Shown here: positions 26,165 to 38,765 of the stretch, piece by piece
Layout: each line of letters starts with the position of its first letter
Numbering within the stretch: position 1 is the first letter of the stretch
Source of the DNA: a virus
Lineage: Duplodnaviria > Caudoviricetes
Length of the DNA: 64,000 nt
IMG/VR virus record: IMGVR_UViG_3300028797_000100
Location: 64,001-128,000 of that record
Strand: one strand, 5' to 3'
Program-made: the position numbers and the translations under genes
Notes under the pieces: generated by a model
The model's input: only the letters and a program-made list of their open reading frames with translations
Database searches by the model: none
What the model was told of the DNA's origin: nothing

Positions 26165-27610
26165 ATGATTGACAACTTATCAGGATTCTTAAACGAGTTA
26201 AAGATATATGTCGTTTGTGAATCAGGATACCTGACCATTGAAGAAATAATAGAGACGATGGTCAAAAAGAAAATGATATCGTTAGCAAGATATGATATCA
26301 GTCAAGTGAACTGTACGCTTATTCTGAATGATATCCAGGAACACATGCAGCGTTATACTGATGCGGAAGTAATGGCCTATTTCTTGAAATACATGTTTGA
26401 TTTCAAGAATGATAATATCTATAAACAGAAACTGTACAGCGTAGGCATAATCAATTGCGCAGATGTAAATATCAGACGTGTTGAGAGAATACATTTAAAT
26501 CTCAGACGTAGAATATTTGCACAACCAAAGTACACTAAAGAAACATTTGTTTTCATCAGTGATATCATTGGTAATGACAAATTCCGCGAAGCTGTCAAAG
26601 AATCTCAAACAGCACCAATGACAGTAAAAGAATTCATACATTATCATTTCAAGTGTTCATTATTAAATCATGATGGTACACTCGAAAAGATAAATAAGAT
26701 TAAAGATGTCATAACTGAAATCAAACCATTTGTGAAGTTCGTCAATACAGATGAATTCCCTTGGAATCTGTTGGTGGCTCTGAATAGAGATTATCACATC
26801 AATGTTTATCAGAAACTGTTGGATTTCTTGAGTGCAAATGGATTGACATTGAATGACATTATCGAAAAGCAAGATATAGCCACGGATGTATTCAAGTACA
26901 ATCTGTGTGCGTTTGTTCATATAAAGTCCAGAGTAGATGTTATCTCAGCAAAGTTCATTCACAATCTTCCTTTATCGGATATCAAAGTATCAAAGCTTAG
27001 TGATTCATCTATAAATGTATCCATCACAAGAATTAAACAGATATATGATGCAGCCATGAGATCAATGGTTGATGCTATAACTGACAACAGCAGATTCTTC
27101 TTTGATGGATTTGAGTTATTTGCAAAGAAACTCAAACCAGATGAGGTTGCAAATAGAATTATGCATGATACACTTCCTCCAAATATAATGGATATGTTGA
27201 TTGCTGTAATTCCTACAGCACCATATATGACATTGGAAGAATTGACATCCATAATTTACAATAACCCTCTCATACATCATGTTATTGTGTATGGATTTCT
27301 CAAGGGTGTTGTTGTTGCCAACCAGGAGCTTCGTGTCTCTCAGGGCATTAGTAGAACTCCTGTGATCCCTGAAGATGTGGCTGAACTGAACTTATCTCAG
27401 AGAGCAACAAATGCACTCATCAGAAGTGGTATACATAAAACTATAGATCTCATAACACTATCATACGATGACTTGCATAACGTAAGAAACATTGGTCAAA
27501 AGAGTTTCGATGAAATCATTGAGACATTAAAAATATATGGTGTTCACATCACCGACAAGGAGGATACTTCACATGAAAGTACGTTTAATTACACACACCC
27601 CAGATCCTGA
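26165..27610 (+). CDS. Protein with a C-terminal RNA polymerase alpha-CTD-like domain
   Basis: DVAELNLSQRATNALIRSGIHKTIDLITLSYDDLHNVRNIGQKSFDEIIETL matches the alpha-CTD pattern L.LS.R..N.L...GI....DL.......L....N.G.KS..EI. Confidence 0.8.
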   Translation: MIDNLSGFLNELKIYVVCESGYLTIEEIIETMVKKKMISLARYDISQVNCTLILNDIQEHMQRYTDAEVMAYFLKYMFDFKNDNIYKQKLYSVGIINCADVNIRRVERIHLNLRRRIFAQPKYTKETFVFISDIIGNDKFREAVKESQTAPMTVKEFIHYHFKCSLLNHDGTLEKINKIKDVITEIKPFVKFVNTDEFPWNLLVALNRDYHINVYQKLLDFLSANGLTLNDIIEKQDIATDVFKYNLCAFVHIKSRVDVISAKFIHNLPLSDIKVSKLSDSSINVSITRIKQIYDAAMRSMVDAITDNSRFFFDGFELFAKKLKPDEVANRIMHDTLPPNIMDMLIAVIPTAPYMTLEELTSIIYNNPLIHHVIVYGFLKGVVVANQELRVSQGISRTPVIPEDVAELNLSQRATNALIRSGIHKTIDLITLSYDDLHNVRNIGQKSFDEIIETLKIYGVHITDKEDTSHESTFNYTHPRS

Positions 27611-28346
27611 GCGAGTAATCGCAACAGCTGCAAAGCTGTGTTATTCTTCTTCGGATATCGAGTCTCTCCAAGAGGGACTCGATCCAGATAAGATTTACAA
27701 CTTTCTTTCAATGTTGACTGAGCTGGGACATGAAAGTCCGATGGAGCATGTTACATTCACCTTTGGAATCGAAGGTATCAGTAGAGCATGTAGTCATCAG
27801 TTAGTTCGTCATCGTATCGCTTCATACTCTCAGAAATCCCAGAGATATGTTAGCGAGAACCAGTTTGATTATGTCACACCACCAGACATCAAATTGGATG
27901 AAATGACAAAAGCTATATATGATGATACAATGGAACTTCTTCAGAGTCGTTATGAAATAATTCGTGATGCTCTCATCAAGAAACATGTTGAAGAAGGTAT
28001 GGAAAAGAAAGCTGCAGAAAAGAAAGCAAATGAAGATGCCAGAATGGTTCTTCCAAATGCTTGCGAGACTTCTATAATTGTGACAATGAACATTCGTTCA
28101 CTGTTCAATTTCTTTAAGCATCGTTGCTGCAATAGAGCTCAGTGGGAAATCCAGCAGCTTGCATTAGAGATGTATAAACTCTGTTTAGGTGTAGCTCCAA
28201 CTATCTTCCGCAATGCAGGTCCATCATGTGTTTCCAAGGGACAGTGTGGTGAAGGCCGCATGACTTGTGGTAAGGCAATGTTCATGAGAGGTATGTTTGC
28301 AGAAATGCATAAAGACGAATTATCGTTAAGAAGTGAAGAAGGGTGA
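27573..28346 (+). CDS. thyX: Flavin-dependent thymidylate synthase
   Basis: GHESPMEH, SRACSHQLVRHRIASYSQKSQRY, EDARMVLPN, RAQWEI. ATG at 27573 follows AAGGAGG. Confidence 0.96.
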   Translation: MKVRLITHTPDPERVIATAAKLCYSSSDIESLQEGLDPDKIYNFLSMLTELGHESPMEHVTFTFGIEGISRACSHQLVRHRIASYSQKSQRYVSENQFDYVTPPDIKLDEMTKAIYDDTMELLQSRYEIIRDALIKKHVEEGMEKKAAEKKANEDARMVLPNACETSIIVTMNIRSLFNFFKHRCCNRAQWEIQQLALEMYKLCLGVAPTIFRNAGPSCVSKGQCGEGRMTCGKAMFMRGMFAEMHKDELSLRSEEG

Positions 28347-28352
28347 TAAGTC

Positions 28353-29075
28353 ATGATACTTGGTAAAAGAGAATATCGTTCCTCAGAAGGAATCGTACAT
28401 GGTTCTTATAACATCACTGACATTTATAAGAAACCTGATGGTACTATAGAATCATATCAGGTTGAAGTAAGTATGACACCGGGAACGACATACCCGGTCA
28501 TTCTTACTGAAGATGAACTTATAGCTGTTGCAAATAACATACCTGCGGCATATCAGTATATAGATAATGAGACACGCGGAAGAAGATTGTTCTCATTTCT
28601 GATAGGTGGTGCTAATGAAAGATACCTCAATGAATATTGCCAACTTCGTGGAATAACATTAGCAACCGATTGCGGTAAATTCCATTTCAGAAATTTCAGA
28701 TACATTGACATTATCGAGTACTGTAACTGCATGTATCAGTATCCAGGTGGCTTTAACATTGGTCCAAGATTTGTTCAGTATGATCAATACTTTGATAAAT
28801 GGAGAGATGAGGTCTGGGGTGGTAAAATGGAACCAATTGAAGTATGTTCTCACGAACAGTACTTCATGGCTGTCAACGGGTTATTGTGGTTGGACGACAA
28901 TATGGCTGAGAAAAGAAATAGAATGAATGAAGATGACTTTGCACGTTTTCTCTTCAGAACATTTGAAGAAAGTTATATCAAAGCATATGAGGAAGCCCGT
29001 CCTAAATTTGAAGAAAGATTTGGAGCTTTCTTGGAAAGTTTAAACAAAGAGGATGATAAAGATGGAAAGAAATAA
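28353..29075 (+). CDS. Hypothetical protein
   Basis: 240-aa ORF in the operon. Confidence 0.75.
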   Translation: MILGKREYRSSEGIVHGSYNITDIYKKPDGTIESYQVEVSMTPGTTYPVILTEDELIAVANNIPAAYQYIDNETRGRRLFSFLIGGANERYLNEYCQLRGITLATDCGKFHFRNFRYIDIIEYCNCMYQYPGGFNIGPRFVQYDQYFDKWRDEVWGGKMEPIEVCSHEQYFMAVNGLLWLDDNMAEKRNRMNEDDFARFLFRTFEESYIKAYEEARPKFEERFGAFLESLNKEDDKDGKK

Positions 29076-30141
29076 CTACACAAAAGTGCCTTGGAACAAA
29101 TGTACACTATTCAGCAGACAGGTACTTTATACAGAACATCGTATCGACAGACGAGACATTCCTGAATTTCCTTATGTGTATGAGGTAAGGATGGAAGAGG
29201 ACGAGGAAGAATCATGTACATATATCTCCGAAATAGATATCTCTGTACCGGATGACAATGAGTTTGGTGGAACAATTCTGTCCACCATCCCATTTCCGGT
29301 TAATATGAAATATCATTCGGTATATGTCAATAAGGATAACTGTTATATCGAATTCCTTCCATATAGCGATTTTAATACATTGGCTAGATGGGTAAAGGAA
29401 GACGATTCAGCATTCATTGTTCCAGCAAATCAAATCATACACAAGGTCACAAAACTGTTCATCTCACAACCATTCACTGGTTATGATGAAAAACAGATAA
29501 AGAAACAGCGTAAGCTCCTCAGAGAGTTATATGCTATATACACTGAGAGACCAGTTGACTGTATAGAACTCATAAATCAACTGGATCCAGTTGATTACAA
29601 AGAGGAAGGATATAAGGCCATATCTGAAGATAGATGGGCTCAGTATACATTCTGCCGTTCAATTGGTCTTCTTGGTTCTGCTGATGTTGTGTTATTCTAT
29701 GAAGACTGGACTAAGTCTAGAGGTTGTAAGATTGAGCATAAGATATGTAAGGAATATCATATCCCAAGTATCGGTCAAAACGATCTCATCCAGTTCTGTA
29801 TGGATAACCCTAAATATGATGATGACTATTTCATGCCATTATGGAAGAAGCAGTTCTTTGATATGCATGACATAGCTGATGTCAATATCTTCAGGAACAA
29901 CAAAGACGGTGGCTTTAATGCTACTGCTGAGATTAATTGCAACAGATACTGTGGTTCAGGCGTCACACCTAATGATGCCTACATAGATTTGTATGTAAAG
30001 CTCGATGAAGCAATACATGAAATTGCGACCAAGCAGATTGATGAACTCGATAAGGTCGATGTTAAAGTTCTGCTCTGTGATGATGCTGAAAATATCACTG
30101 ATGAAGATATTGAAAATGCTTTAAACAATTTAGAGATATAA
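29062..30141 (+). CDS. Multidomain protein: LPD28-like N-terminus plus a DUF4406/nucleoside-deoxyribosyltransferase-like domain
   Basis: LYTEHRIDRRDIPE..YVYEVR..FGGTILS, then KLFISQPFTG...ADVVLFYEDWTKSRGCKIEH. Confidence 0.6.
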   Translation: MERNNYTKVPWNKCTLFSRQVLYTEHRIDRRDIPEFPYVYEVRMEEDEEESCTYISEIDISVPDDNEFGGTILSTIPFPVNMKYHSVYVNKDNCYIEFLPYSDFNTLARWVKEDDSAFIVPANQIIHKVTKLFISQPFTGYDEKQIKKQRKLLRELYAIYTERPVDCIELINQLDPVDYKEEGYKAISEDRWAQYTFCRSIGLLGSADVVLFYEDWTKSRGCKIEHKICKEYHIPSIGQNDLIQFCMDNPKYDDDYFMPLWKKQFFDMHDIADVNIFRNNKDGGFNATAEINCNRYCGSGVTPNDAYIDLYVKLDEAIHEIATKQIDELDKVDVKVLLCDDAENITDEDIENALNNLEI

Positions 30142-30862: not shown

Positions 30863-31252
30863 TAATTAATCAAAATCTGCTACTATAATTTACATCGATA
30901 ATGAGAGGATGAATAATTCTCTCTTTATCATAGATTCTGGAAACGGAGAAATGGATGTGTATGAGTTCGGGAGATTCTCTACATAGACCACCGGAGTACA
31001 GAGCGTTCGGAAATGGCACCTTATACGAAATGGTGATTTTCGGTCAACTTCGCCAAAATAGTTAGCCACAGTCCGGACGTCTACAAAAGCCCGCCCTTCC
31101 TTATCTTGGGCGGGATTGCTTTCAATTCGTTTTATGAACGTATCCTCCGATATATGATACTTGAGTGAAGGTTTCGGTCATTAGTCCTTCACATCATAAA
31201 ACGATTGAAATATAATTATCCCATATCAAGCGCACATAGATATGGGATATAT

Positions 31253-31338
31253 GCCGAAGTGATGGAATGGTAGACTTGGCAGACTCAAAATCTGCTGTGA
31301 GCAATCACGTGTGGGTTCGAGTCCCACCTTCGGCACCA
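31253..31338 (+). tRNA. tRNA-Leu(CAA)
   Basis: GCCGAAG/CTTCGGC acceptor, GCAGA-CT-CAA-AA-TCTGC, long variable arm, T loop TTCGAGT, encoded CCA. Confidence 0.92.
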
Positions 31339-31339
31339 A

Positions 31340-31463
31340 TGATATTCGATGGGTGGTCCAAGAGAACGGTCGGAATGATTGATTTCGTTTCGTGGCAACA
31401 ATGAATATTGGATTATTCATTGGACGGGTTCAAGTCCCGTACGATCCTTCGAATATCACACCA
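31340..31463 (+). ncRNA. tRNA-like RNA with a T arm and extended terminal stem, no anticodon arm
   Basis: ACGGG-TTCAAGT-CCCGT T arm. GGGTGGT/ACGATCC stem extended by TGATATTCGA/TCGAATATCA. Ends CACCA. Confidence 0.5.
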
Positions 31464-31607
31464 ATGATATAGTGTACCTGTACATATCGGTCATGTTTCT
31501 TTGCCTGGGCATGACAGCACTTGCTTTCTCGGCTTATACTGCACCCATCTCTTCAGCGTCTAGGGTGTTATTCATGTGAATTCATAACAGTACACTATAT
31601 CATACCA
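31464..31607 (+). ncRNA. Unknown structured RNA closed by a long terminal stem
   Basis: ATGATATAGTGTAC...GTACACTATATCAT (14-bp perfect) followed by ACCA. Confidence 0.5.
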
Positions 31608-31848
31608 CCGGAGTTCTGGTATATCATAAATACAAACTAGAGGTACCCTAGTCATTCGTATTAGTTAATCCCCTAATCGACTTAGTATTTGTGATGAAGA
31701 AGTGCTTTACGTATGACCCAGATAAGGCGCTCCGGACCAGATGCTACTTTCGTTCCCACTTTAGTAGCATTTACTCATATGCGTGGCAGGAGCTTCCTCA
31801 ATTACTCCTGCCACACCCCCTAAAATAAATGAAAAGGAGTATTTAAAA

Positions 31849-32178
31849 ATGGAAAATGAGACTAAAAAGAATGATGACGGAATGGTTGAAATTGAGCTTG
31901 AACTTACACCAGAAGAACTTGAAGATCTGGAGAAGCGTGCTAAAGAACATAATATGACATTGGATGAATATTGTGTAGCATGTTGTAAAGTACCAGCGCA
32001 GATAAAAGCTGCTAAAAATCTCACCAATACAATTGATGAAGCACTTCAGTCGGAGAATTTATCCGATGAAGCTCGTAAATCACTTACTAATGTTAAGGAC
32101 GCAACAATGGCACTTGAGAAATATCTCAGTGGTGATATGTCCGAAGAAGAATTCAAAAATGCTATCAATTCCCTTTAA
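31849..32178 (+). CDS. Small protein, possible ribbon-helix-helix DNA-binding domain
   Basis: RBS GAAAAGGAG, ATG at 31849. IELELTPEELEDLEKRAKEHNMTLDEY. Confidence 0.6.
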   Translation: MENETKKNDDGMVEIELELTPEELEDLEKRAKEHNMTLDEYCVACCKVPAQIKAAKNLTNTIDEALQSENLSDEARKSLTNVKDATMALEKYLSGDMSEEEFKNAINSL

Positions 32179-32771
32179 TCGATAATAATGCACAATGTGC
32201 GTTACTATACCAGATAGAACAGTAGGCAACGTCATCAGAGTCGTTGATCCAAGAGCGCTTGGCCTGGATAACTCATCACTATCCTTTATCTGTTCTATAG
32301 AGTTTCATCACTTGTGATCGCTATTGGGATCCATACGGGATGTCTTGAAATGATATATAGCATTCTAGTAGATTCCTCTTATTATAGTTAAGGCTCTACC
32401 GGCAATCACACTTAGGGAGAGAGCTAACCCGCATGGACGTAAGCGTTATGGTAGATTTCGTTTACAATGTTCATGGTTGAAACTTATGATGCCTATGTCG
32501 GAGGCGGTGCTCAGTGCTAGAACGTTAAACCGTCGACGTTATAAAAATCCGCGTCCACACAAACGCGAAGAGGAGGACCGAGGGATTCGTCACCCCGGAG
32601 ATTATACATAGGATCAATATACGAATACTGTTGGAGATGTGGCCTGGTCGTTAGCGCCATCTAATCAAAAGAGTGTGTAGTAGTTTAAGTAATCCCAGAA
32701 CGTCTCAGTCGTGCGTCACATGTGAGCCGTTGAGAACGTTAGGAATGTAAAAACACCGACAGTATGTATAT

Positions 32772-32848
32772 CGAGGCGTAACTCAGTTTGGTAGAGTGCT
32801 TGGTTTGGGACCAAGATGCCGCAGGTTCGAGTCCTGTCGCCTCGACCA
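32772..32848 (+). tRNA. tRNA-Pro(TGG)
   Basis: CGAGGCG/CGCCTCG, CTTGG-TT-TGG-GA-CCAAG, CCA. Confidence 0.95.
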
Positions 32849-33067
32849 GTAGGAGAGTATTCATGGTAACCAAGGAACGGTTACGACATATCAGGCCATT
32901 ACCGCGTACGAGGTAATGTATGTTGGGTGATCCCCGTGGATATTCTTCTATTCCAGAGAAGCACGGATGGCCATGGGAGCCGCTCTAAGAGAGCTTAATG
33001 CGGTGCTTGAAAAATAATATGGGCCAGCCAGGGTGTGGTAGCTCCCTTCATCATCCTGGGCCTAGGC

Positions 33068-33144
33068 GGCTGGTTAGCTTAGATGGCTAAAGCATCCGGT
33101 TCATACCCGGAAGACCGTCAGTTCGAGTCTGACACCAGCTACCA
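33068..33144 (+). tRNA. tRNA-Met(CAT), elongator-like
   Basis: GGCTGGT/ACCAGCT, TCCGG-TT-CAT-AC-CCGGA, CCA. Confidence 0.93.
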
Positions 33145-33260
33145 GAAACCACAAGTAGCCGTGCTGTAGGTGGCAGGCGTGCTAGTTAACCAAAGAGCCG
33201 TACGACAATCTTGGTTCTTGCTGCATCGGTTCGAGTCCGTTCGCGGTTGCTTGTGGTTTC
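33145..33260 (+). ncRNA. Unknown RNA with a 17-bp terminal stem and T-loop-like arm
   Basis: GAAACCACAAGTAGCCG...CGGTTGCTTGTGGTTTC, with internal CGG-TTCGAGT-CCG. Confidence 0.5.
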
Positions 33261-33287
33261 ACATCCTTTCTATTTTTTATAAATTTG

Positions 33288-33307
33288 AGATATATATTTT
33301 TACTATG
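33288..33307 (+). promoter_or_regulatory. Putative early promoter for the tRNA/Y-like RNA/Ro cluster
   Basis: TTTCTATTTTTT...GAGATATATATTTTTACTATG, nearly identical to the element at 2844-2884. Confidence 0.55.
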
Positions 33308-33561
33308 TGATGGAACACAATTTATATATGTTCTCTATGGGTTCAAAGGATTTCCCTGTAGAGAACCACTTGCTCAGATATATGACGATGTTCGGCCAGC
33401 ACATCGTCATGGGGTGTTCGACTCACAGATGTATGAATGATGGATTGTTATATATCTCAACAAATAAATCCTGGTGGCTAGACGGGATTTCAAGTTCCTA
33501 CGCATGAATACATTTGGATGCATGTATTTATGAAGCAACGCCTTACAATCATCATTCATAT

Positions 33562-33636
33562 GGCGCTATGGTCAAGAGGTCAAGACATCTCCCTTTCACG
33601 GAGGGGTCCCGAGTTCGATTCTCGGTAGCGTCACCA
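33562..33636 (+). tRNA. tRNA-Glu(TTC)
   Basis: GGCGCTA/TAGCGTC, TCTCC-CT-TTC-AC-GGAGG, CCA. Confidence 0.95.
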
Positions 33637-33723
33637 AGCATGGATTCTTAAACCCGATCCATGTACAAACATCCTTAACTCGGCAGCATCATTTAGTCTT
33701 CCCTTCGTGGTGCTGCCATATAT

Positions 33724-33862
33724 GCGGCGATTAGCTCAGTTGGTAGAGCGTGTACGTACTGGTATGGTATTCTCATACACTTTGTGCATGATGCAGTTAT
33801 ATCAGTTACTTCGAGCTAGTGGACTCCAAGGTCGTAGGTTCGAATCCTGCATCGCCGCCTCA
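33724..33862 (+). ncRNA. Y-RNA-like/tRNA chimera 1 (tRNA ends, Y-like helix inserted after the D arm)
   Basis: GCGGCGAT/ATCGCCGC acceptor, D arm GCTC-AGTTGGTA-GAGC, T arm GTAGG-TTCGAAT-CCTGC. The insert carries TTCTCAT...TGATGCAG...TTACTTCG. Confidence 0.75.
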
Positions 33863-33866
33863 ATTT

Positions 33867-33943
33867 GCCTGGTTAGCTCAGTTGGTAGTAGCGACGGACT
33901 GTTAATCCGTGTGTCGTAGGTTCAAGTCCTACACTAGGCGCCA
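33867..33943 (+). tRNA. tRNA-Asn(GTT)
   Basis: GCCTGGT/ACTAGGC, ACGGA-CT-GTT-AA-TCCGT, CCA. Confidence 0.95.
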
Positions 33944-33944
33944 A

Positions 33945-34096
33945 TTAAACATAAACGATGCAGTAGCGTTCGGTTACTTCGCTTAACCTGTCACGTTAAA
34001 AACGATCCAAGAGTTCGAATCTCTTCATAGTCCTACGGGCTGTGCTGGTCATTGGTGAGACCATAACCCGAATGCATTTTTCTCGTTTATGTTTAA
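33945..34096 (+). ncRNA. YrlA-like Y RNA 2 with an Asp(GTC) anticodon arm
   Basis: Terminal stem TTAAACATAAACGA/TCGTTTATGTTTAA, CGATGCAG..TTACTTCG, TTAAC-CT-GTC-AC-GTTAA, T arm AAGAG-TTCGAAT-CTCTT, looped acceptor stem, D arm GGTC-ATTGGTGA-GACC. Confidence 0.8.
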
Positions 34097-34098
34097 AT

Positions 34099-34174
34099 GG
34101 ATCTGTAGCTCAGTTGGTAGAGCAGTGGTCTGAAGAACCACGTGTCGGTTGTTCGATTCAACCCAGGTCCACCA
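34099..34174 (+). tRNA. tRNA-Phe(GAA)
   Basis: GGATCTG/CAGGTCC, GTGGT-CT-GAA-GA-ACCAC, CCA. Confidence 0.95.
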
Positions 34175-34184
34175 ATTTAAATAT

Positions 34185-34328
34185 GGGGGAGTATCCAAAT
34201 TGGTTAAAACCCGTTGTCAGTTTTCTCAGAGTAATCTGATGCAGTAGGTAACGGATACTTCGGAATTAGAATGTAAATCTAACGCTTTGCAAAAGCTATG
34301 CAGGTTCGAGTCCTGTCCTCCCCCACCA
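34185..34328 (+). ncRNA. tRNA-Tyr(GTA)-like RNA with a Y-like helix inserted in the D loop (chimera 3)
   Basis: GGGGGAG/CTCCCCC-A-CCA, D stem TCC/GGA, TTAGA-AT-GTA-AA-TCTAA, long variable arm, T arm. Insert CCGTTG..TTCTCAGA-GTAA-TCTGATGCAG..AACGG-ATACTTC. Confidence 0.78.
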
Positions 34329-34333
34329 AATAC

Positions 34334-34410
34334 GGTCCTGTAGTTCAAATGGTTAGAGCACCTGCCTGTCACGCAGGAAGTTGTCAGTTCAAGTCTGATC
34401 AGGATCGCCA
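34334..34410 (+). tRNA. tRNA-Asp(GTC)
   Basis: GGTCCTG/CAGGATC, CCTGC-CT-GTC-AC-GCAGG, CCA. Confidence 0.95.
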
Positions 34411-34412
34411 GA

Positions 34413-34580
34413 TAATACTATTAACGATGCAGTCGATGTGAGTTACTTCGAAAGTGACATCAAGCAGATATGGGAGTTCGAGTCTCTCTGCCGCATTCTT
34501 CATGGATACGGTATGGCGGAATTGGCAGACGCATTACCTAGAAATTAAAACTCACGTCAATATTCTCGTTAATAGTATTA
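34413..34580 (+). ncRNA. YrlA-like Y RNA 4
   Basis: Terminal stem TAATACTATTAACGA/TCGTTAATAGTATTA, CGATGCAG..TTACTTCG, T arm GGGAG-TTCGAGT-CTCTC, looped acceptor, Leu-type D arm GCG-GAATTGGCAGA-CGC. Confidence 0.8.
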
Positions 34581-34584
34581 ATAT

Positions 34585-34672
34585 GGATGAGTATGCCCAG
34601 TTGGCGAAGGCAGCGGACTGTAAATCCGTGACATTAGAAACAACGTAGGTTCGACTCCTACCTCATCCACCA
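34585..34672 (+). tRNA. tRNA-Tyr(GTA)
   Basis: GGATGAG/CTCATCC, GCGGA-CT-GTA-AA-TCCGT, long variable arm, CCA. Confidence 0.93.
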
Positions 34673-34811
34673 ATACGAATGAAGCAGCCGGTGTGAGTTA
34701 CTTCCAAAATGTTAAAAGTTCAAGTCTTTTGTTAGCCTTCTCTGCTAATTAGCTCAACTGGGTAGAGCGTTTGGCCCTATAGACTCCACCATTATTCTCA
34801 TTCGTATACCA
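34673..34811 (+). ncRNA. YrlA-like Y RNA 5
   Basis: Terminal stem ATACGAATGA/TCATTCGTAT plus ACCA, TGAAGCAG..TTACTTC, T arm AAAAG-TTCAAGT-CTTTT, looped acceptor GTTAGC/GCTAAT, D arm GCTC-AACTGGGTA-GAGC. Confidence 0.8.
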
Positions 34812-34813
34812 AT

Positions 34814-34952
34814 AAAGGACTGAAGCAGCCGATGCGGTTACTTCGATAGACAAGTGGTAAAGTCAATGATCTGCAACATCATCAACGTTGGTTCAAGTCC
34901 AACTCGATCCCTATGGGATATGCGACCGCATCAATATTCTCAGTCCTTTCCA
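34814..34952 (+). ncRNA. Y-like RNA 6 enclosing a tRNA-Cys(GCA) body
   Basis: Terminal stem AAAGGACTGA/TCAGTCCTTT plus CCA. TGAAGCAG..TTACTTCG is followed by D arm GAC-AAGTGGTAAA-GTC, ATGAT-CT-GCA-AC-ATCAT and T arm GTTGG-TTCAAGT-CCAAC. Confidence 0.8.
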
Positions 34953-34983
34953 TATTTATTTCAATCATAAGGAGGTAAATAAC

Positions 34984-36696
34984 ATGAGTCGTATTTCAGA
35001 TATGGCGAAGAAAATGACAGAAAATCAGAAACTTAAACCTGATGAAGTGGTTAAAAACTTCATGGGAGGAGATAGCTACAAGCTTAATCCTCTTGATACT
35101 TTAAAGATGATTGCTGCATCATCGATATTTGGTGAACCTTCGTACTATAGAAAGAACATCTCTGATGCTACTTTCGAAGTAGACGATTCAACCTTTGAAG
35201 ATGACGAGATTGTCACAAAGGATTACAACAACAAGAGCACAACCGAAATCTTCCAGGAAGCTATCGATAAAGCTCTTGACTATAACTTCTCTGCAACACT
35301 CAAGCTTGCAGTTGAGTTGAGACATGACTACTACATGAGGTTGAATCCTCAGGTAATCATGGTTAGAGCTGCCATCCATCCTAAGCGGAAGGAGTGGTCT
35401 GAGAAACATCCCGGTGAGTTCAACAAAATCAATGCGGAGGTTATGCTTCGTGCTGATGAACCTGCTGCTCAGTGTTCATATTATTTGTTTATAAACGGAG
35501 GAAAGAAGTCAGCAATGCCTTCTATTCTTAAACGTTCAATCGCTTCCAGGATTTCCAATCTTGGTCGTTATCAGGTAAACAAATATAAAAACTCAGATCT
35601 CGGAATGATCAATACAGTTCGTCTTACGCATGCTAATTCACCAATCGTGGATGAGCTTATGAAGACTGGTACTGTCGAGGTTAAAAACGAGGATGAGACA
35701 TGGGAGCAGAAACGTTCTGCTGGACTGTCTTGGAAAGAAATTCTTGCTACAACTAAGATGGGTCATATGGCTCTCCTTAGAAATATCAAGAATGTTTTCA
35801 CTGAGATTAATGACCTCGAATTCTGTAAAGCTTACATGGCTGACCTGAAGGATGGGGTTATTGATGGTAAACAGTTCCCATATCGTTATGAGGCTGCTTA
35901 CACCAGACTCAAGAACGAGAAAGGTGTACATCATCTTTCAACAATTCTCGACGGGCTTGAGGAGTGTATCGACATCTCTGTCGAGAATCTTCCTAAGCTC
36001 AAGGGTACAACTGTATGTCTTTCTGACAATAGTGGTTCCGCTTGGGGTGCTCTCACTTCAGAATATGGTTCTACAACAGTTGCTCATATCGATAACTTAT
36101 CATCTGTAATTGCTGCTCAGTGTAGTGATGAAGGATATGTTATCAAGTTCGGTGACAGATATGAGGAGTATCCTATTTCGCACAGAAATGGTGTCCTCAA
36201 ACAAGCATCCGAAATTGACAAAAATGGCTACGACATTGTCGGTGGACACACTGAAGGAGGAATCTGGAAGTGGTTCAAGAGAGCTATCAATGAGAGAATC
36301 AAGGTGGACAACATCTTCATCTTCTCTGATATGCAGGCAGGTTGTGGTGGTCTGTATGGTACCATCGAAGACATTAGAGAATACCGTGAAGCTTACGGCT
36401 ATCGGTATGGACAGATGAGTAGATGGAGACATCGTGGAAGCAGATGCAATCTGTATGATATGATAAACGTATACAAGCTTGTACTTGACTACAGAAAGAA
36501 AGTTAACCCCAAGGTTAACGTCTTCTGTGTTCAGACAGCAGGCTATGACAACGTTGTTATACCTCAGATGACATATAGATGTGCAATGCTCACAGGATGG
36601 ACTGGTAAGGAAATTCTGTTTGCGAAAGAGTATATAAAACAATGGGATGACATTGAGTGGAAGAACACTTCTCCTCATGAGTCTCCCAACAACTAA
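34984..36696 (+). CDS. rsr: Ro60/Rsr-like TROVE-domain ribonucleoprotein with a C-terminal vWA domain
   Basis: NFMGGDSYKLNP..GEPSYY, LAVELRHDYYMRLNPQV, MGHMALLRN, KQFPYRY, MIDAS-like SDNSGS..T..FSDMQ. ATG at 34984 follows AAGGAGG. Confidence 0.9.
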   Translation: MSRISDMAKKMTENQKLKPDEVVKNFMGGDSYKLNPLDTLKMIAASSIFGEPSYYRKNISDATFEVDDSTFEDDEIVTKDYNNKSTTEIFQEAIDKALDYNFSATLKLAVELRHDYYMRLNPQVIMVRAAIHPKRKEWSEKHPGEFNKINAEVMLRADEPAAQCSYYLFINGGKKSAMPSILKRSIASRISNLGRYQVNKYKNSDLGMINTVRLTHANSPIVDELMKTGTVEVKNEDETWEQKRSAGLSWKEILATTKMGHMALLRNIKNVFTEINDLEFCKAYMADLKDGVIDGKQFPYRYEAAYTRLKNEKGVHHLSTILDGLEECIDISVENLPKLKGTTVCLSDNSGSAWGALTSEYGSTTVAHIDNLSSVIAAQCSDEGYVIKFGDRYEEYPISHRNGVLKQASEIDKNGYDIVGGHTEGGIWKWFKRAINERIKVDNIFIFSDMQAGCGGLYGTIEDIREYREAYGYRYGQMSRWRHRGSRCNLYDMINVYKLVLDYRKKVNPKVNVFCVQTAGYDNVVIPQMTYRCAMLTGWTGKEILFAKEYIKQWDDIEWKNTSPHESPNN

Positions 36697-36703
36697 TTGA
36701 TAG

Positions 36704-36879
36704 AAACCGCCTATGATGCAGCGGTCAGTGTTACTTCTGAATTTTAAATTGATTATTTAAAACATTCATTCCCCGGTTGTAGTTAAACATTCAAGCCGAT
36801 GGTATACTTGTATATCGCGTTTAACACAGAGGCGCTGGGCAAACACATATACACTGATGAATATTCTCATAGGCGGTTT
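36704..36879 (+). ncRNA. Y-like RNA 7 with a non-tRNA internal domain
   Basis: Terminal stem AAACCGCCTATGA/TCATAGGCGGTTT, TGATGCAG..TCAGTGT-TACTTC and ACACTGA..ATTCTCA. Starts 8 nt after the Ro stop codon. Confidence 0.75.
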
Positions 36880-37037
36880 TATATGTGCTCTGAGAGGTAG
36901 TCCCCTCAAGGAGCGCTCCGAAGTTCTACAAATCAAAAAGTTTCATTTAACCTCTCGGGCCCTACTTGGGCCCATACTCTTTTTTTTTATTTTAAACAGC
37001 TCTGTAATTTATAACATTATAAAGGAGATGTTAAATT

Positions 37038-38765
37038 ATGAATATTACTAATGAGATTTTATTTGCTATAGATAATATATACGAGGAGCAGTACAGAGCA
37101 AACAGTAATGTTGCTGAATCATTGTTGAGTGTATATGACAAACAGCAAATGATTCTTGAAAGTTGTGAAGATATGATGGATCTTCCAGATATACCCATCA
37201 TGGAAGCTGATTATACATTCATGGCTGCAGACCTTGGTCAGAAAGAAAAGAAGTCAAATATCTTCCAGACTATATGGAATGCTATTAAGAATTTCTTCAA
37301 GATGTTAGCTGACAAGGTTAAATCGTTGATTGATAGAATTACTTCCAAAGGTGAGACTCCTGGGGGATATCAATCATGTAACAGTGTACTGTTGAAACTT
37401 TTATCCAAGTCCAAAGCTAACATACCTGATGATATTGATAGCTACAAAATTCCTACAGTAAACCCAAAGTATCTTCATAAAGACTTCGTTGAGGAATCGT
37501 ATATTGAAGAATATCATGACGTAATGACTGAAGATGACTTCATCATGGAATCTGGAGATACAACAAAATATATTACAGTACAAATTCCTGTTGGTAACGG
37601 TTCAACATTCTATCCAAAAACAATCAAAGTCCCTAACAATGATATTCTTGCCGTATTTGATAATGATGAAAAGTCTATCACATTCCATGTATCCGGTTTT
37701 GGTAAATGGACTGATATCAGTATCAACAGAACTGGTGATACTACTGGTTCTTCTGAAATCACTGGTACAAAGAAACCATGGTTTGGTGATGCAAAAATAC
37801 CATTGTATCTGATAACAAATCGTGAAGCTCTTGACAAGCTCATTGAGTTGTCTAATCTTGCCACAGCAATTCTTATTGAGAAGAAAGAAAAGCACGTAAA
37901 GTTATTCAACCATAGAATCAAGGGTATCATCGATGATATCGAGAAGAATGCTAAGAAGATTAAGATGAACAAGTATGCTGTTTCATTGAAAGATCTCACA
38001 TATTTCCAGAAGGCTTTGAACAAGATCAATTATAAATTGGATCAGTATGCAAACATCAATACAGATGTATCATCTTTAGATAAACATACTATAGAAAATC
38101 TTTCTTACTTAACAAGCAAGATGATTAGATACCAGATAGCATTCAATATGATTACATCATCTCTCAATGATAACTACATAGTGGATGCTAAATTCATTGG
38201 TTGTATTAGAAGCGTTGCTTTGCTTGACCAGTTTGTTGCAACATGTATAAAACAGGGTCTTCCTCCAAAATACATCGCATATAATACATGGCTTGTTGCT
38301 GATCAATGCATCAAGGGTTCAAAGAATGACTACAAACCTGTATGGGGTCAGACTAGATTCATCTTCTTCCCACCAGGAGGCCGTGTAGTTTATAAGATTG
38401 CCATGACAGGTTCTGGTATAACATCCAATAAAGCAGAAGATCGTACATCTGATCTGTTTGTTAAGATGGATAGAGTTGATCTGATTGCTCCTGTATGTAA
38501 GGTATGGCCTGCAAATGCAATTATTGCTATGGAGCGTGTAGACAATGAAGAGAAGCCGTCATATCCAGCATTGATGTCATATACAAAACGTGTCAATGAT
38601 GTTATTGAAGATTATGAAAGATCACACAATCTCCATCTCAACATTGACATATCCGACCAGCATAAAGACAATATCAAGTATGATAAGAAATATGGTTGCT
38701 ATAGATCTATCGACTATGGTATTGCGAACAGAGTTTATCGTAAACCTGAAAAGAAAAAGAAGTAA
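37038..38765 (+). CDS. Probable virion protein with a C-terminal protein-kinase-like domain
   Basis: WGQTRF, VVYKIA, SNKAE, IAMERV, SDQHKDNI, SIDYG. Paralog of 54650-56266. Confidence 0.65.
   Translation: MNITNEILFAIDNIYEEQYRANSNVAESLLSVYDKQQMILESCEDMMDLPDIPIMEADYTFMAADLGQKEKKSNIFQTIWNAIKNFFKMLADKVKSLIDRITSKGETPGGYQSCNSVLLKLLSKSKANIPDDIDSYKIPTVNPKYLHKDFVEESYIEEYHDVMTEDDFIMESGDTTKYITVQIPVGNGSTFYPKTIKVPNNDILAVFDNDEKSITFHVSGFGKWTDISINRTGDTTGSSEITGTKKPWFGDAKIPLYLITNREALDKLIELSNLATAILIEKKEKHVKLFNHRIKGIIDDIEKNAKKIKMNKYAVSLKDLTYFQKALNKINYKLDQYANINTDVSSLDKHTIENLSYLTSKMIRYQIAFNMITSSLNDNYIVDAKFIGCIRSVALLDQFVATCIKQGLPPKYIAYNTWLVADQCIKGSKNDYKPVWGQTRFIFFPPGGRVVYKIAMTGSGITSNKAEDRTSDLFVKMDRVDLIAPVCKVWPANAIIAMERVDNEEKPSYPALMSYTKRVNDVIEDYERSHNLHLNIDISDQHKDNIKYDKKYGCYRSIDYGIANRVYRKPEKKKK

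What the first reader, a model, noticed from the sequence alone, without database searches (positions are those of the whole stretch)
33724..34952. The Y-like helix is inserted at different positions of the tRNA scaffold: a natural circular-permutation series
Seen: RNA1 (33724-33862) has tRNA-type ends with the helix after the D arm. RNA2 (33945-34096) has its ends in the helix and the order anticodon(GTC, Asp)-T-looped acceptor-D. RNA3 has the helix in the D loop. RNA4 and RNA5 are classical YrlA-like with the anticodon arm replaced. RNA6 (34814-34952) has the helix interrupting the 5' acceptor strand, leaving D, anticodon (GCA, Cys) and T arms intact. Three keep perfect 5-bp/7-nt anticodon arms, which suggests selection on the anticodon face. 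Inference: these are repeated independent tRNA-to-Y-RNA conversions, each exposing a different tRNA surface as bait for host tRNA-targeting proteins.
Basis: partly seen in the sequence, partly recalled or inferred. Interest (0 to 1): 0.78.

Follow-up and report, generated by a model that had tools for sequence, protein, structure and literature searches.

The report
Ro60 handle grafted onto tRNA bodies
A large gut or rumen phage encodes, next to its Ro60 gene, seven small RNAs that all carry one conserved docking module joined to tRNA-shaped bodies at five different positions; this extends the known Ro60/Y-RNA system and gives testable clues to what its tRNA mimics do.

Summary
Between 33724 and 34952 (+), six RNAs alternate with five ordinary tRNA genes. 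A seventh RNA follows the downstream gene, whose predicted fold matches Ro60.

All seven share one module: helix A, an internal loop (5' GA-WGCRG, 3' UAUUC-UC), helix B and a UUACUUC tail.

The module joins a tRNA body at different points:
- RNA1: after the D arm, with tRNA-type ends.
- RNA2: between the D and anticodon arms, with the acceptor looped.
- RNA3: in the D loop, with tRNA ends and CCA.
- RNA4 and RNA5: on the anticodon stem, the classical YrlA order.
- RNA6: in the 5' acceptor strand.

Orthologues from 9-22 related phages support the RNA1, 2, 3, 5 and 6 folds by compensatory changes. RNA4 has no orthologue. Anticodon loops (Asp, Tyr, Cys) are more conserved than their stems.

New here:
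- RNA1 has tRNA-His architecture, an 8-bp acceptor stem usually followed by CCA.
- The same module occurs in cultured Bacillus phage G.

The "independent conversions" reading is plausible. The "bait for host defence" reading is untested.

This is a new variant of a known kind. YrlA and phage Ro60 are published; I found no paper on the multi-topology arrays. Earlier notes of this scan describe similar arrays on other genomes.

The parts
33562..33636 (+). tRNA-Glu(UUC), first canonical tRNA of the interleaved stretch
   Evidence: ARAGORN; Rfam tRNA 60.8 bits
33724..33862 (+). RNA1, a tRNA-His-like body with tRNA-type ends. Acceptor 33724-33731/33851-33858 (8 bp). D arm 33734-33749. Capped module: helix B 33759-33767/33797-33805, helix A 33773-33780/33784-33791. 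UUACUUC 33806-33812. 3-bp hairpin 33813-33826. T arm 33834-33850. The tail is CUCA.
   Evidence: The 22-sequence family A5 has 98.9% paired cells and 20/28 pairs compensatory. Covariance model R1 scores 120 bits.
33867..33943 (+). tRNA-Asn(GUU), CCA encoded
33945..34096 (+). RNA2, with its ends in helix A (33947-33958/34083-34094). Helix B 33965-33973/34068-34076. Anticodon arm 33983-33999 (loop CUGUCAC, Asp). T arm 34009-34025. Looped 8-bp acceptor 34026-34044. D arm 34047-34062.
   Evidence: The 11-sequence family A3 has 95.9% paired cells and 18/38 pairs compensatory. ARAGORN miscalls part of it as tRNA-Asp 33954-34033.
34099..34174 (+). tRNA-Phe(GAA)
34185..34328 (+). RNA3, a tRNA-Tyr-like body with tRNA ends. 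Acceptor 34185-34191/34318-34324. D stem 34194-34196/34262-34264. The capped module lies inside the D loop (helix B 34211-34218/34247-34254, helix A 34226-34230/34235-34239, GUAA cap). Anticodon arm 34266-34282 (AUGUAAA). Variable arm 34284-34296. T arm 34300-34316. A73 and CCA 34325-34328.
   Evidence: The 9-sequence family A7 has 94.6% paired cells and 11/36 pairs compensatory. All 14 relatives in A4 end in ACCA or GCCA.
34334..34410 (+). tRNA-Asp(GUC)
34414..34582 (+). RNA4, with its ends in a 14-bp helix A (34414-34427/34566-34579). Helix B 34434-34442/34551-34559. T arm 34472-34488. Looped acceptor 34489-34513 (7 bp, one mismatch). Leu-type D arm 34516-34532. YrlA order.
   Evidence: Read from this single sequence only. 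The D region matches a phage tRNA-Leu 22/22 nt. It has no orthologue and is absent from the 95%-identical relatives L047/L048.
34585..34672 (+). tRNA-Tyr(GUA), canonical
34676..34812 (+). RNA5, classical YrlA order. Helix A 34676-34682/34798-34804. Helix B 34690-34698/34783-34790. 5-bp anticodon stem 34704-34708/34770-34774. T arm 34714-34730. Looped acceptor 34731-34749. D arm 34752-34768.
   Evidence: The 9-sequence family A6 has 14/35 pairs compensatory. Rfam YrlA scores 29.6 bits on 34706-34772, below the gathering score of 69.
34814..34952 (+). RNA6. Helix A 34814-34823/34940-34949. Helix B 34831-34839/34924-34932. Acceptor nt 4-7 34843-34846 pair with 34904-34907. D arm 34849-34864. Anticodon arm 34866-34882 (CUGCAAC, Cys). 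T arm 34887-34903. Closed hairpin 34907-34919 in the place of acceptor nt 1-3.
   Evidence: The 12-sequence family A2 has 99.2% paired cells and 18/32 pairs compensatory, with all 5 anticodon-stem pairs compensatory. Rfam tRNA scores 47.2 bits.
34984..36696 (+). Ro60 (TROVE plus vWA) gene, 570 aa, with a ribosome-binding site (AGGAGG) at 34970-34975
   Evidence: PHROG 850, E 2.3e-41. The profile hits phage phiLo Ro60 (9KOP/9L5Y), E 3.8e-12. The AlphaFold2 model has pLDDT 79, and the top 13 Foldseek hits are all Ro60 structures. MIDAS motif DNSGS at aa 348-352. Pfam TROVE scores only 21.3 bits, below the cut-off of 23.
36704..36879 (+). RNA7: the same module enclosing about 110 nt of non-tRNA cargo, starting 8 nt after the Ro60 stop codon
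   Evidence: The motif and its partner are. Orthologues at 78-95% identity occur in L038/39, L047/48, L036/37 and L168.
36957..36973 (+). Terminator-like hairpin that probably ends the array-Ro60-RNA7 transcription unit
   Evidence: Consensus scan. No + strand promoter-like site lies between 33285 and 35093.

Best explanation
The stretch is part of a single transcription unit made of tRNAs, Y RNAs, the Ro60 gene and one more Y RNA.

Each Y RNA consists of one homologous docking module joined to a cargo. The module is helix A, a conserved 7x7-type internal loop that begins with YGAW on the 5' strand, helix B and a single-stranded UUACUUC tail. It is most likely the binding site of the phage Ro60 ring.

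In six of the seven RNAs the cargo is a tRNA-derived body whose D/T elbow is intact. The module is attached at five different peripheral points of that body. As a result, different faces stay free:
- RNA1 and RNA3: a free acceptor end with His- or Tyr-type identity marks.
- RNA2, RNA3 and RNA6: a complete anticodon arm.
- RNA4 and RNA5: neither.

I infer that the RNAs are released by the host's tRNA-processing enzymes. I also infer that they act as adaptors which dock Ro60, and whatever nuclease it recruits, onto proteins that recognise tRNA, or which hold such proteins. The attachment point would then select which class of tRNA reader can bind.

Shown here: the folds, their conservation, the common module, the Ro60 fold of the neighbouring protein and the linkage of module and gene.

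Inferred: Ro60 binding, processing, and the adaptor function.

The family most likely arose by repeated fusion or recombination of the module with different tRNA genes of the array.
For: Module:
- All 7 copies in the 163.7-kb record lie in this array on the + strand.
- In 126 loci fetched through relatives of this Ro60 protein, plus this window, 376 of 489 5' motifs have a correctly placed partner under a strict rule. Random positions pass that rule 1.9% of the time.
- Helices A and B are 6.7/7 and 6.3/7 paired, against 4.1 and 3.1 with shuffled partners. The 3' loop consensus (A/U)UAUUC emerged without being imposed.

Ro60:
- Searches support the Ro60 identity of the neighbouring protein.
- The 5' YGAW at a stem-loop-stem junction resembles the published Ro60 contact motifs GNCGAAN0-1G and CGAA (PMC4201824, PMC12135203). 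Mutating CGAA weakens phage Ro60 binding 3-4 fold (PMC12135203).

Folds.

Conserved faces:
- Anticodon loops are more conserved than their stems.
- In RNA1 relatives the 8-bp acceptor stem is followed directly by CCA in 17 of 28 members.
- RNA3 relatives all end in A/G-CCA.
- The elbow motifs (GG in the D loop, UUCRANY in the T loop) are present in all six RNAs.

One transcription unit:
- Gaps between genes are 1-12 nt from tRNA-Asn to RNA6; 87 nt separate tRNA-Glu from RNA1.
- No promoter-like site lies inside the array, and a terminator-like hairpin follows RNA7.

Mosaic origin: the module is the same throughout, while the bodies are His-, Asp-, Tyr-, Leu- and Cys-like.

Precedent:
- The Y RNA of D. 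radiodurans tethers Ro60 to PNPase (PMC4201824).
- The YrlA elbow is proposed as the effector site (10.1101/312249).
- Phage phiLo Ro60 and its Yrl RNAs bind host PNPase (PMC12135203).
Against:
- None of the seven window copies has an exact CGAA.
- Rfam YrlA scores at most 29.6 bits against a gathering score of 69.
- RNA4 rests on one sequence, and its cloverleaf model is 12.7 kcal/mol worse than the minimum free energy.
- More than half of the module RNAs in relatives (151 of 283) have no T arm, so a tRNA body is not needed for whatever the module itself does.
- No RNA-repair or PNPase-type partner was identified in the 61%-complete record.
- The partner proteins remain unknown.
Confidence: 0.7

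Rival explanations
1. Decoy reading. The RNAs are baits that soak up host tRNA-targeting defence proteins such as anticodon nucleases. Ro60 stabilises the cut decoys or marks them.
For: - Anticodon loops are conserved more than their stems.
- Among 54 Y RNAs of the earlier, looser census that keep an anticodon arm next to a T arm, Asp, Cys, Tyr, Asn and Lys dominate. From my own knowledge, Tyr/His/Asn/Asp are the targets of colicin E5 and Lys is the target of PrrC.
- Closed acceptor stems would make non-chargeable mimics.
- Phages are known to counter tRNA cleavage.
Against: - No test here bears on it.
- No nuclease, ligase, kinase-phosphatase or queuosine genes were found in the record.
- RNA1, RNA4 and RNA5 present no anticodon loop.
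- RNA1 and RNA3 keep acceptor identity marks and CCA, which a pure anticodon decoy would not need.
- 4 of 9 RNA3 orthologues have A instead of U33.
Confidence: 0.2
2. Chassis reading. The tRNA bodies are only processing and stability scaffolds. They let RNase P, RNase Z and the CCA enzyme cut the module RNAs out of the tRNA operon and protect them. The module alone is the functional part.
For: - The RNAs are tightly interleaved with tRNAs.
- RNA1 looks like the engineered 'tRNA scaffold', in which an insert replaces the anticodon arm (my own knowledge).
- 151 of 283 module RNAs in relatives work without any T arm.
- The elbow, which the processing enzymes read, is the invariant part.
Against: - A chassis does not need a conserved anticodon loop sequence, yet the loops are as conserved as T loops.
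- It does not need His-type G-1:C73 or Tyr-type A73 with a long variable arm either.
- Closed-acceptor forms (RNA2, 4, 5, 6) are poor RNase P substrates according to 10.1101/312249.
Confidence: 0.2
3. Real or precursor tRNAs. RNA1 and RNA3 would be decoding tRNAs with an insertion. RNA2 and RNA6 would be permuted pre-tRNAs matured by excision of the module, as in the permuted tRNA genes of Cyanidioschyzon.
For: - RNA3 has every arm, A73 and CCA.
- Rfam tRNA scores 47 bits inside RNA6.
Against: - RNA1 has no anticodon.
- RNA3 has an extra nucleotide between the T stem and the acceptor stem.
- U33 is lost in 4 of 9 RNA3 orthologues, and the D-loop GG and the T-loop consensus are lost together in L042 and L176.
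- A canonical tRNA-Tyr and a canonical tRNA-Asp lie in the same array.
- The inserted module is the same conserved element as in RNAs with no tRNA part.
- No bacterial enzyme is known to splice such sites.
Confidence: 0.05
4. Decaying tRNA genes hit by a small selfish repeat, or chance similarity.
For: RNA4 is present in this phage but absent from the 95%-identical relatives, so the array gains or loses units quickly.
Against: - Compensatory changes keep every helix across phages whose Ro60 identity falls to about 53%.
- All copies lie on the Ro60 strand and beside the Ro60 gene.
- Random positions pass the strict partner rule only 1.9% of the time.
Confidence: 0.02

Closest known systems
YrlA Y RNAs of bacterial and phage Ro60/Rsr (Chen et al. 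2014, PMC4201824; structure by Wang et al. 2018, 10.1101/312249; Rfam RF02553)
   Same: - Encoded beside Ro60 on the same strand.
- A terminal stem with a Ro60 motif, joined to a tRNA-like body with a D/T elbow.
- RNA5, and probably RNA4, have exactly the V-T-AS-D order with a looped acceptor, already described as a 'circularly permuted tRNA'.
   Different: - The Rfam model scores at most 29.6 bits against a gathering score of 69.
- The handle is GAWGCRG/UAUUCUC plus UUACUUC, not GNCGAAN0-1G.
- There are up to 7-10 copies per phage, interleaved with tRNAs.
- Four further wirings are not described for YrlA: tRNA-type ends with a capped module (RNA1, RNA3), and complete anticodon arms (RNA2, RNA3, RNA6).
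Thermus phage phiLo Ro60 with Yrl1/Yrl2 (PMC12135203; PDB 9KOP, 9L5Y)
   Same: - The closest solved relative of the protein (profile E 3.8e-12; Foldseek target-normalised TM-score 0.75).
- A phage Ro60 with Y-like RNAs upstream of its gene.
- A stem-bulge-stem RNA with a 5'-strand motif that contributes to binding.
   Different: - phiLo has two simple stem-bulge-stem RNAs. The parts of that paper I read do not describe a tRNA-like body for them.
- About 18-19% sequence identity.
- Host PNPase binding was shown there and has not been tested here.
Deinococcus radiodurans Yrn1
   Same: Chen et al. already noted that Yrn1 and YrlA place the T and D arms in a different order relative to the RNA ends, and inferred independent origins from tRNA. 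That is a two-member precedent for the series seen here.
   Different: Yrn1 and YrlA come from different organisms. Here at least five wirings coexist in one operon and share one module.
Bacillus phage G gp540 region (NC_023719, 401-415 kb)
   Same: - Ro60 is 50.7% identical over 99% of its length.
- Seven copies of the same module (GA-WGCGG ... CAGUUACUUC / AAUAAUCUC) lie nearby, one of them in YrlA order.
- It is a cultured phage.
   Different: No RNA1-type (tRNA-ended) member was found within 6 kb of gp540. Most of the cargos are not tRNA-like.
Circularly permuted tRNA genes of Cyanidioschyzon merolae, and two-piece permuted tmRNA genes. The former are cited in 10.1101/312249; the latter is from my own knowledge.
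   Same: A tRNA-shaped RNA written in rotated gene order with a closed acceptor stem.
   Different: Those are matured into working tRNA or tmRNA. Here the permuting element is a conserved protein-docking module, and nothing indicates that it is excised.

Membership tests
Ro60 / TROVE protein (the neighbouring gene, 34984-36696) | HEAT-repeat ring of the TROVE fold | tested here: met
   The AlphaFold2 model has pLDDT 79.2. The top 13 Foldseek hits are all Ro60 structures (9KOP, 9L5Y, 2NVO, 1YVP, 9NEN), with E 4e-16 to 1.5e-9. The profile against the PDB gives E 3.8e-12. PHROG 850 gives E 2.3e-41. Pfam TROVE itself scores only 21.3 bits, below its cut-off of 23.
Ro60 / TROVE protein | C-terminal vWA domain with a MIDAS motif (DxSxS...T...D) | tested here: met
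   DNSGS lies at aa 348-352, is invariant in 19 homologues, and is followed by conserved T423 and D449. The lower Foldseek hits are vWA domains.
Y RNA (defined by function: bound by Ro60) | Physical association with Ro60 | not testable with these tools
   Needs an EMSA or RIP experiment. Only linkage is shown: 109 of 127 Ro60-linked loci carry at least one module under the looser pairing rule.
Y RNA | Stem, bulge or internal loop, then stem, with a conserved 5'-strand motif (GGUCCGA, GNCGAAN0-1G or CGAA) | tested here: inconclusive
   The stem-loop-stem architecture is met and covaries. The motif here is YGAW-GCRG. The seven window copies read CGAU (2), UGAA (2) and UGAU (3); none is an exact CGAA.
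YrlA (Rfam RF02553) | Score at or above the family gathering threshold (69 bits) | tested here: not met
   The best score is 29.6 bits on RNA5. Two further matches, 20.6 and 18.4 bits, straddle the boundaries between a Y RNA and the next tRNA. The phage G homologue scores 36.2 bits.
YrlA | Order V-T-looped acceptor-D, carried on an anticodon-stem equivalent that continues into the Ro60 stem | tested here: met
   Met for RNA5 (A6) and, on a single sequence, for RNA4. Not met for RNA1, RNA2, RNA3 or RNA6, which have other wirings.
YrlA | tRNA elbow nucleotides (GG in the D loop, UUCRANY in the T loop) | tested here: met
   Present in all six RNAs. T-loop column identity is 0.77-0.91.
tRNA (RF00005), functional decoder | Contiguous cloverleaf with a free 7-bp acceptor stem, a discriminator base and a 3' CCA | tested here: not met
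   - RNA2, 4, 5 and 6 have closed acceptor stems.
- RNA1 has no anticodon arm.
- RNA3 has every arm and CCA, but a roughly 50-nt insert in the D loop and an extra nucleotide at the 65/66 junction. Neither ARAGORN nor Rfam calls it a tRNA.
- The ARAGORN calls at 33954-34033 and 34840-34911 are internal fragments of Y RNAs.
tRNA-His architecture (as the origin of RNA1) | An extra G-1 paired with C73, giving an 8-bp acceptor stem directly followed by CCA | tested here: met
   There are 8 paired positions, 7 of them varying (6 by compensatory changes); the terminal pair is G:C in 21 of 22 sequences. CCA follows directly in 17 of 28 distinct members. The window copy has CUCA. That G-1:C73 defines His identity is from my own knowledge. 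Charging was not tested.

The most novel reading that the evidence does not exclude
The phage builds Ro60-docked versions of particular tRNAs so that specific identity readers are captured on, or policed by, a Ro60 particle. RNA1 (G-1:C73 plus CCA) and RNA3 (A73, long variable arm, GUA, CCA) would be recognised, and perhaps charged, by HisRS and TyrRS. RNA2, RNA3 and RNA6 would present Asp, Tyr and Cys anticodon loops to anticodon-specific enzymes or nucleases. The array would then be a counter-measure against, or a sensor of, host attack on tRNAs. It would also be the first case in which the effector side of a bacterial-type Y RNA can be read directly from its sequence.
Probability: 0.2. Interest if true: 0.85.

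Novelty: new variant of a known kind. Interest (0 to 1): 0.68.

Why it matters
What the tRNA-like domain of bacterial Y RNAs binds has been an open question since 2014.

This array is a natural experiment on that question. One docking module sits on tRNA bodies that differ in which face is free: the acceptor end with His or Tyr marks, an intact Asp, Tyr or Cys anticodon loop, or neither. That turns the question into a set of direct pull-down, charging and cleavage assays.

It also bears on how Y RNAs arose. The published model is a dimeric tRNA transcript. It cannot give the tRNA-ended, capped forms, which look like a module inserted into a tRNA gene.

There are practical points too:
- Gene callers mislabel pieces of these RNAs as tRNA-Asp and tRNA-Cys.
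- The family is common in large gut and rumen phages.
- The module is present in cultured Bacillus phage G, which offers a laboratory entry point.

Tried and rejected
- **Pattern scan.** A 14-base module pattern run over IMG/VR gave single chance hits only. Loci L049-L128 were discarded.
- **First partner rule.** A score of 12 or more out of 14 anywhere within reach is met by 39% of random positions. I replaced it with a stricter rule that random positions pass 1.9% of the time and recounted the classes. The class counts and the anticodon tally are therefore approximate.
- **Short BLAST of the tRNA-like pieces against 634 phage tRNAs.** Uninformative, except for the Leu-type D arm of RNA4. The Cys hit was the RNA6 orthologue itself.
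- **Gene searches in the own record.** RtcB, Rnl2, Rnl1, the CCA enzyme, TGT and QueC all came back negative. The record is only 61% complete, and the Rnl1 control rang nowhere.
- **ABC-type gene next to Ro60 in relatives.** I suspected a tRNA-related ABC-F or PrrC-like ATPase. It is a membrane half-transporter.
- **megablast of the region against GenBank phages.** It found only a 56-nt tRNA-like match.
- **Supplement of Chen et al..** It lists phage YrlA coordinates but is not held.
- **Group-2 Tyr-like relatives.** Here the module sits between an intact D arm and the anticodon arm. There are only five close sequences with little covariation, so that extra wiring is seen but weakly supported.
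- **A resemblance I recalled** between the module's 5' strand and the vertebrate Y RNA stem was not tested and is not used.


Full report
**What is in the sequence**

The window is part of a 163.7-kb virus record estimated to be 61% complete. From 33562 to 34952 on the + strand, five ordinary tRNA genes alternate with six longer RNAs. The tRNAs are Glu, Asn, Phe, Asp and Tyr (ARAGORN and Rfam).

From tRNA-Asn to RNA6 the spacing between genes is 1-12 nt; 87 nt separate tRNA-Glu from RNA1. No promoter-like site lies on the + strand between 33285 and 35093. A terminator-like hairpin lies at 36957-36973. A 570-codon gene with a strong ribosome-binding site starts at 34984. A seventh RNA of the same kind (36704-36879) begins 8 nt after its stop codon.

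**The neighbouring protein is a Ro60**

- Pfam TROVE is only a sub-threshold hit (21.3 bits against a cut-off of 23).
- PHROG 850, 'RNA-binding protein', matches end to end (E 2.3e-41).
- A profile of 19 homologues finds the Ro60 of Thermus phage phiLo in the PDB (9KOP/9L5Y, E 3.8e-12).
- An AlphaFold2 model has pLDDT 79 and pTM 0.78. Its 13 best Foldseek matches are all Ro60 structures, from phage, Deinococcus, Xenopus and human.
- The vWA MIDAS motif DNSGS is invariant.
- The protein has more than 3000 homologues, many of them on contigs of about 160-385 kb; the metagenome loci come largely from rumen and gut samples.
- The closest cultured relative is gp540 of Bacillus phage G, 50.7% identical over 99% of its length.

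**The shared module**

All seven RNAs contain the following parts, in order:
- On the 5' strand: helix A ending in YGA, then WGCRG-N, then helix B, then (G)UUACUUC.
- On the 3' strand: helix B, then N(A/U)UAUUC, then UC and the rest of helix A.

In the own record the 5' motif with a correctly placed partner occurs only at these seven sites on the + strand.

I collected 126 loci around homologous Ro60 genes and analysed them together with this window. Under a strict partner rule, 376 of 489 5' motifs have a partner, while random positions pass the rule 1.9% of the time. A first, looser rule was passed by 39% of random positions, so I dropped it. Even under the loose rule the 3' loop consensus appeared without being imposed. 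Helices A and B were 6.7/7 and 6.3/7 paired, against 4.1 and 3.1 with shuffled partners, and almost every position used all six standard pair types.

The module is therefore a real, conserved, structured element linked to Ro60 genes. Its 5' YGAW, at a stem-loop-stem junction, resembles the published Ro60 contact motifs: GNCGAAN0-1G in YrlA (PMC4201824) and CGAA in phage phiLo Yrl RNAs. In phiLo each CGAA base contributes 3-4 fold to binding (PMC12135203). Binding here is inferred, not shown. Bacillus phage G carries seven copies of the same module near gp540.

**The wirings** (coordinates)

- **RNA1** has tRNA-type ends. It consists of an 8-bp acceptor stem, a canonical D arm, an A-rich linker, the module with its strands in swapped order and helix A closed by a loop, UUACUUC, a 3-bp hairpin with a 7-8-nt loop, and a T arm.
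- **RNA2** has its ends in helix A. Helix B opens onto a five-way junction that carries a complete anticodon arm (loop CUGUCAC), a T arm, an 8-bp acceptor closed by a triloop, and a D arm. The module enters where position 26 of a tRNA would be.
- **RNA3** is a tRNA-Tyr look-alike. It has the acceptor, U8-A9, a 3-bp D stem, a GUA anticodon arm, a long variable arm, a T arm, A73 and CCA. The module is capped by GUAA and sits in the 3' part of the D loop.
- **RNA5** has the classical YrlA order on a 5-bp anticodon stem (CCAAA/UUUGG).
- **RNA4** reads the same way, with a Leu-type D arm that matches a phage tRNA-Leu 22/22 nt.
- **RNA6** contains a cloverleaf that Rfam scores as tRNA (47.2 bits). 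Its acceptor stem is 4 bp formed with the upstream strand plus a 5-bp hairpin closed by UAU. The module therefore interrupts the 5' acceptor strand between nucleotides 3 and 4.

RNA1 keeps a vestigial hairpin at the anticodon position. RNA5 lacks only the anticodon loop, not the stem.

**Evidence that the folds are real**

BLAST found orthologues of RNA1, 2, 3, 5, 6 and 7 in related phages, and none of RNA4. RNA4 is missing from the 95%-identical relatives L047 and L048, where tRNA-Asp is followed directly by tRNA-Tyr. RNAalifold recovered the proposed helices unaided.

Counting pairs on the alignments gave:

| Family | Sequences | Cells paired | Pairs with change on both sides |
|---|---|---|---|
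| RNA6 | 12 | 99.2% | 18 of 32 |
| RNA1 | 22 | 98.9% | 20 of 28 |
| RNA2 | 11 | 95.9% | 18 of 38 |
| RNA3 | 9 | 94.6% | 11 of 36 |

In each family 0 of 500 shuffles reached the observed percentage paired or covariation score. Sliding the 3' partners by 1-3 columns dropped pairing to 27-51%. In the RNA6 family all five anticodon-stem pairs show compensatory changes.

A covariance model of the RNA1 family found 31 full-length members at 75 bits or more, in about 22 loci. These reach down to Ro60 identities of about 53-55%. Plain tRNAs score 51 bits or less with that model.

A strict census of 283 non-identical module RNAs gave:
- 151 without a T arm
- 45 in YrlA order
- 24 of the RNA2 type
- 22 of the RNA6 type
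- 21 capped
- 20 other

Relatives also hold a further wiring, a Tyr-like tRNA with the capped module between an intact D arm and the anticodon arm. Only five close sequences support it.

RNA4 is the weak point. It rests on one sequence, and its cloverleaf model is 12.7 kcal/mol above the minimum free energy.

**Selection on the faces**

The anticodon loops are conserved:
- CUGCAAC in 10 of 12 RNA6 relatives.
- CUGUCAC in 7 of 11 RNA2 relatives; 9 of 11 keep the GUC anticodon.
- Y-W-GUAAA in all RNA3 relatives.

Mean pairwise column identity is 0.82-0.90 for the loops, 0.59-0.83 for their stems and 0.21-0.60 for linkers. Switches of identity do occur: Cys to Asn or Lys, and Asp to Glu by a single G34U change.

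In the RNA3 family 4 of 9 members have A at position 33. Two members have lost the D-loop GG and the T-loop consensus together. Both facts argue against a decoding role.

On the acceptor side, the RNA1 family has an 8-bp stem whose terminal pair is G:C in 21 of 22 sequences. In 17 of 28 distinct members CCA follows directly. The window copy has CUCA. An 8-bp stem made by G-1:C73 and followed by CCA is the hallmark of tRNA-His (my own knowledge). None of the array's 11 ARAGORN calls is a tRNA-His. RNA3 relatives all keep A/G73 and CCA.

The D/T elbow motifs are present in all six RNAs.

**Interpretation**

Shown:
- One homologous module is linked to a Ro60 gene and joined to tRNA bodies at five peripheral sites.
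- The elbow is invariant, and selected anticodon or acceptor faces are conserved.

Inferred:
- Ro60 binds the module.
- The RNAs are cut out of a polycistronic transcript by tRNA-processing enzymes.
- They act as adaptors between Ro60 and proteins that read tRNAs. The precedents are the Y-RNA tether to PNPase in Deinococcus (PMC4201824) and the proposal that the YrlA elbow is an effector site (10.1101/312249).

The bodies carry marks of different tRNAs (His, Asp, Tyr, Leu, Cys), so repeated fusion or recombination of the module with array tRNA genes is the simplest history. The published 'dimeric tRNA' origin model (10.1101/312249) can give the T-AS-D order. It cannot give the tRNA-ended, capped forms.

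It is one of several readings of the same conserved faces.

**Comparison with what is known**

Already published:
- Phage Ro60 genes with Y-like RNAs, and YrlA as a permuted tRNA mimic (PMC4201824; 10.1101/312249; PMC12135203).
- The remark that Yrn1 and YrlA differ in orientation and probably arose independently (PMC4201824).

I found no paper describing arrays with several wirings, tRNA-ended Y RNAs, or Y RNAs with intact conserved anticodon arms.

Earlier notes of this scan report the same kind of array on other genomes: e1-5401139, e1-5730447, e1-5684590, e1-5369457 and e1-272486. I did not test those genomes.

Verdict: a real feature and a new variant of a known kind. The function is unresolved, but the sequence now points to specific experiments.

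Noticed in passing
window 36704-36879: A seventh RNA with the same module starts 8 nt after the Ro60 stop codon. It encloses about 110 nt with no T or D arm and is conserved at 78-95% identity in five relatives. It may be a different adaptor, or a Ro60 site on the rsr transcript.
   Followed up: partly
window 33954-34033 and 34840-34911: ARAGORN calls a tRNA-Asp and a tRNA-Cys here. Both are internal pieces of Y RNAs (RNA2 and RNA6) with no free acceptor end. Automatic annotation will overcount tRNAs in such phages.
   Followed up: yes
window 34414-34582 versus L047:1406-1411 and L048:2063-2068: RNA4 is absent from the two relatives whose Ro60 is 95% identical; there tRNA-Asp is followed directly by tRNA-Tyr. 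The array therefore gains or loses whole units on a short time scale.
   Followed up: partly
window 33724-33862 and 27 relatives: The RNA1 family has tRNA-His architecture: an 8-bp acceptor stem with a terminal G:C pair, followed by CCA in 17 of 28 members. No canonical tRNA-His is present in this record, and ARAGORN called only 4 among the 634 tRNAs in the 127 loci scanned (this window included).
   Followed up: partly
L042:1769-1905, L176:1757-1890 (alignment A7): Two RNA3 relatives have lost the D-loop GG and changed the T loop (UGAGAAU, UGAAAAC) at the same time, as expected if the two loops contact each other. Four of nine RNA3 relatives have A instead of U at position 33.
   Followed up: no
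L037:708-860, L171:779-930 (alignment A3): In two RNA2 relatives the anticodon is UUC (Glu) instead of GUC (Asp), through a single G34U change, with the rest of the loop kept.
   Followed up: no
window 30870-33560, e.g. 33430-33560: Upstream of the array, between tRNA-Leu, Pro, Met and Glu, lie further units of about 100-150 nt closed by long terminal stems (for example AUGAAUGAUG... pairing with ...CAUCAUUCAU). They lack the Ro60 module, and I could not assign them to a family.
   Followed up: no
L248 (Bacillus phage G, NC_023719 401414-415057), module starts at 3787, 5264, 5464, 5571, 5695, 5800 and 11369: Cultured phage G has seven copies of the same module around gp540. One has YrlA order (Rfam YrlA 36.2 bits) and six have non-tRNA cargo. 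A tmRNA gene and a tRNA with anticodon UUA lie in the same cluster.
   Followed up: partly
L040:6836-8407, L044:6585-8207 and the equivalent genes in L041-L043: In several relatives the gene after Ro60 encodes a 520-540-aa ABC half-transporter (transmembrane region plus ABC ATPase). In the window that place is taken by a 575-aa protein with no family match (37038-38765).
   Followed up: partly
window 27537-28346 and 29053-30141: ThyX (flavin-dependent thymidylate synthase; Pfam E 1.4e-71) and a protein with LPD28 and nucleoside 2-deoxyribosyltransferase-like matches lie just upstream of the RNA region.
   Followed up: no
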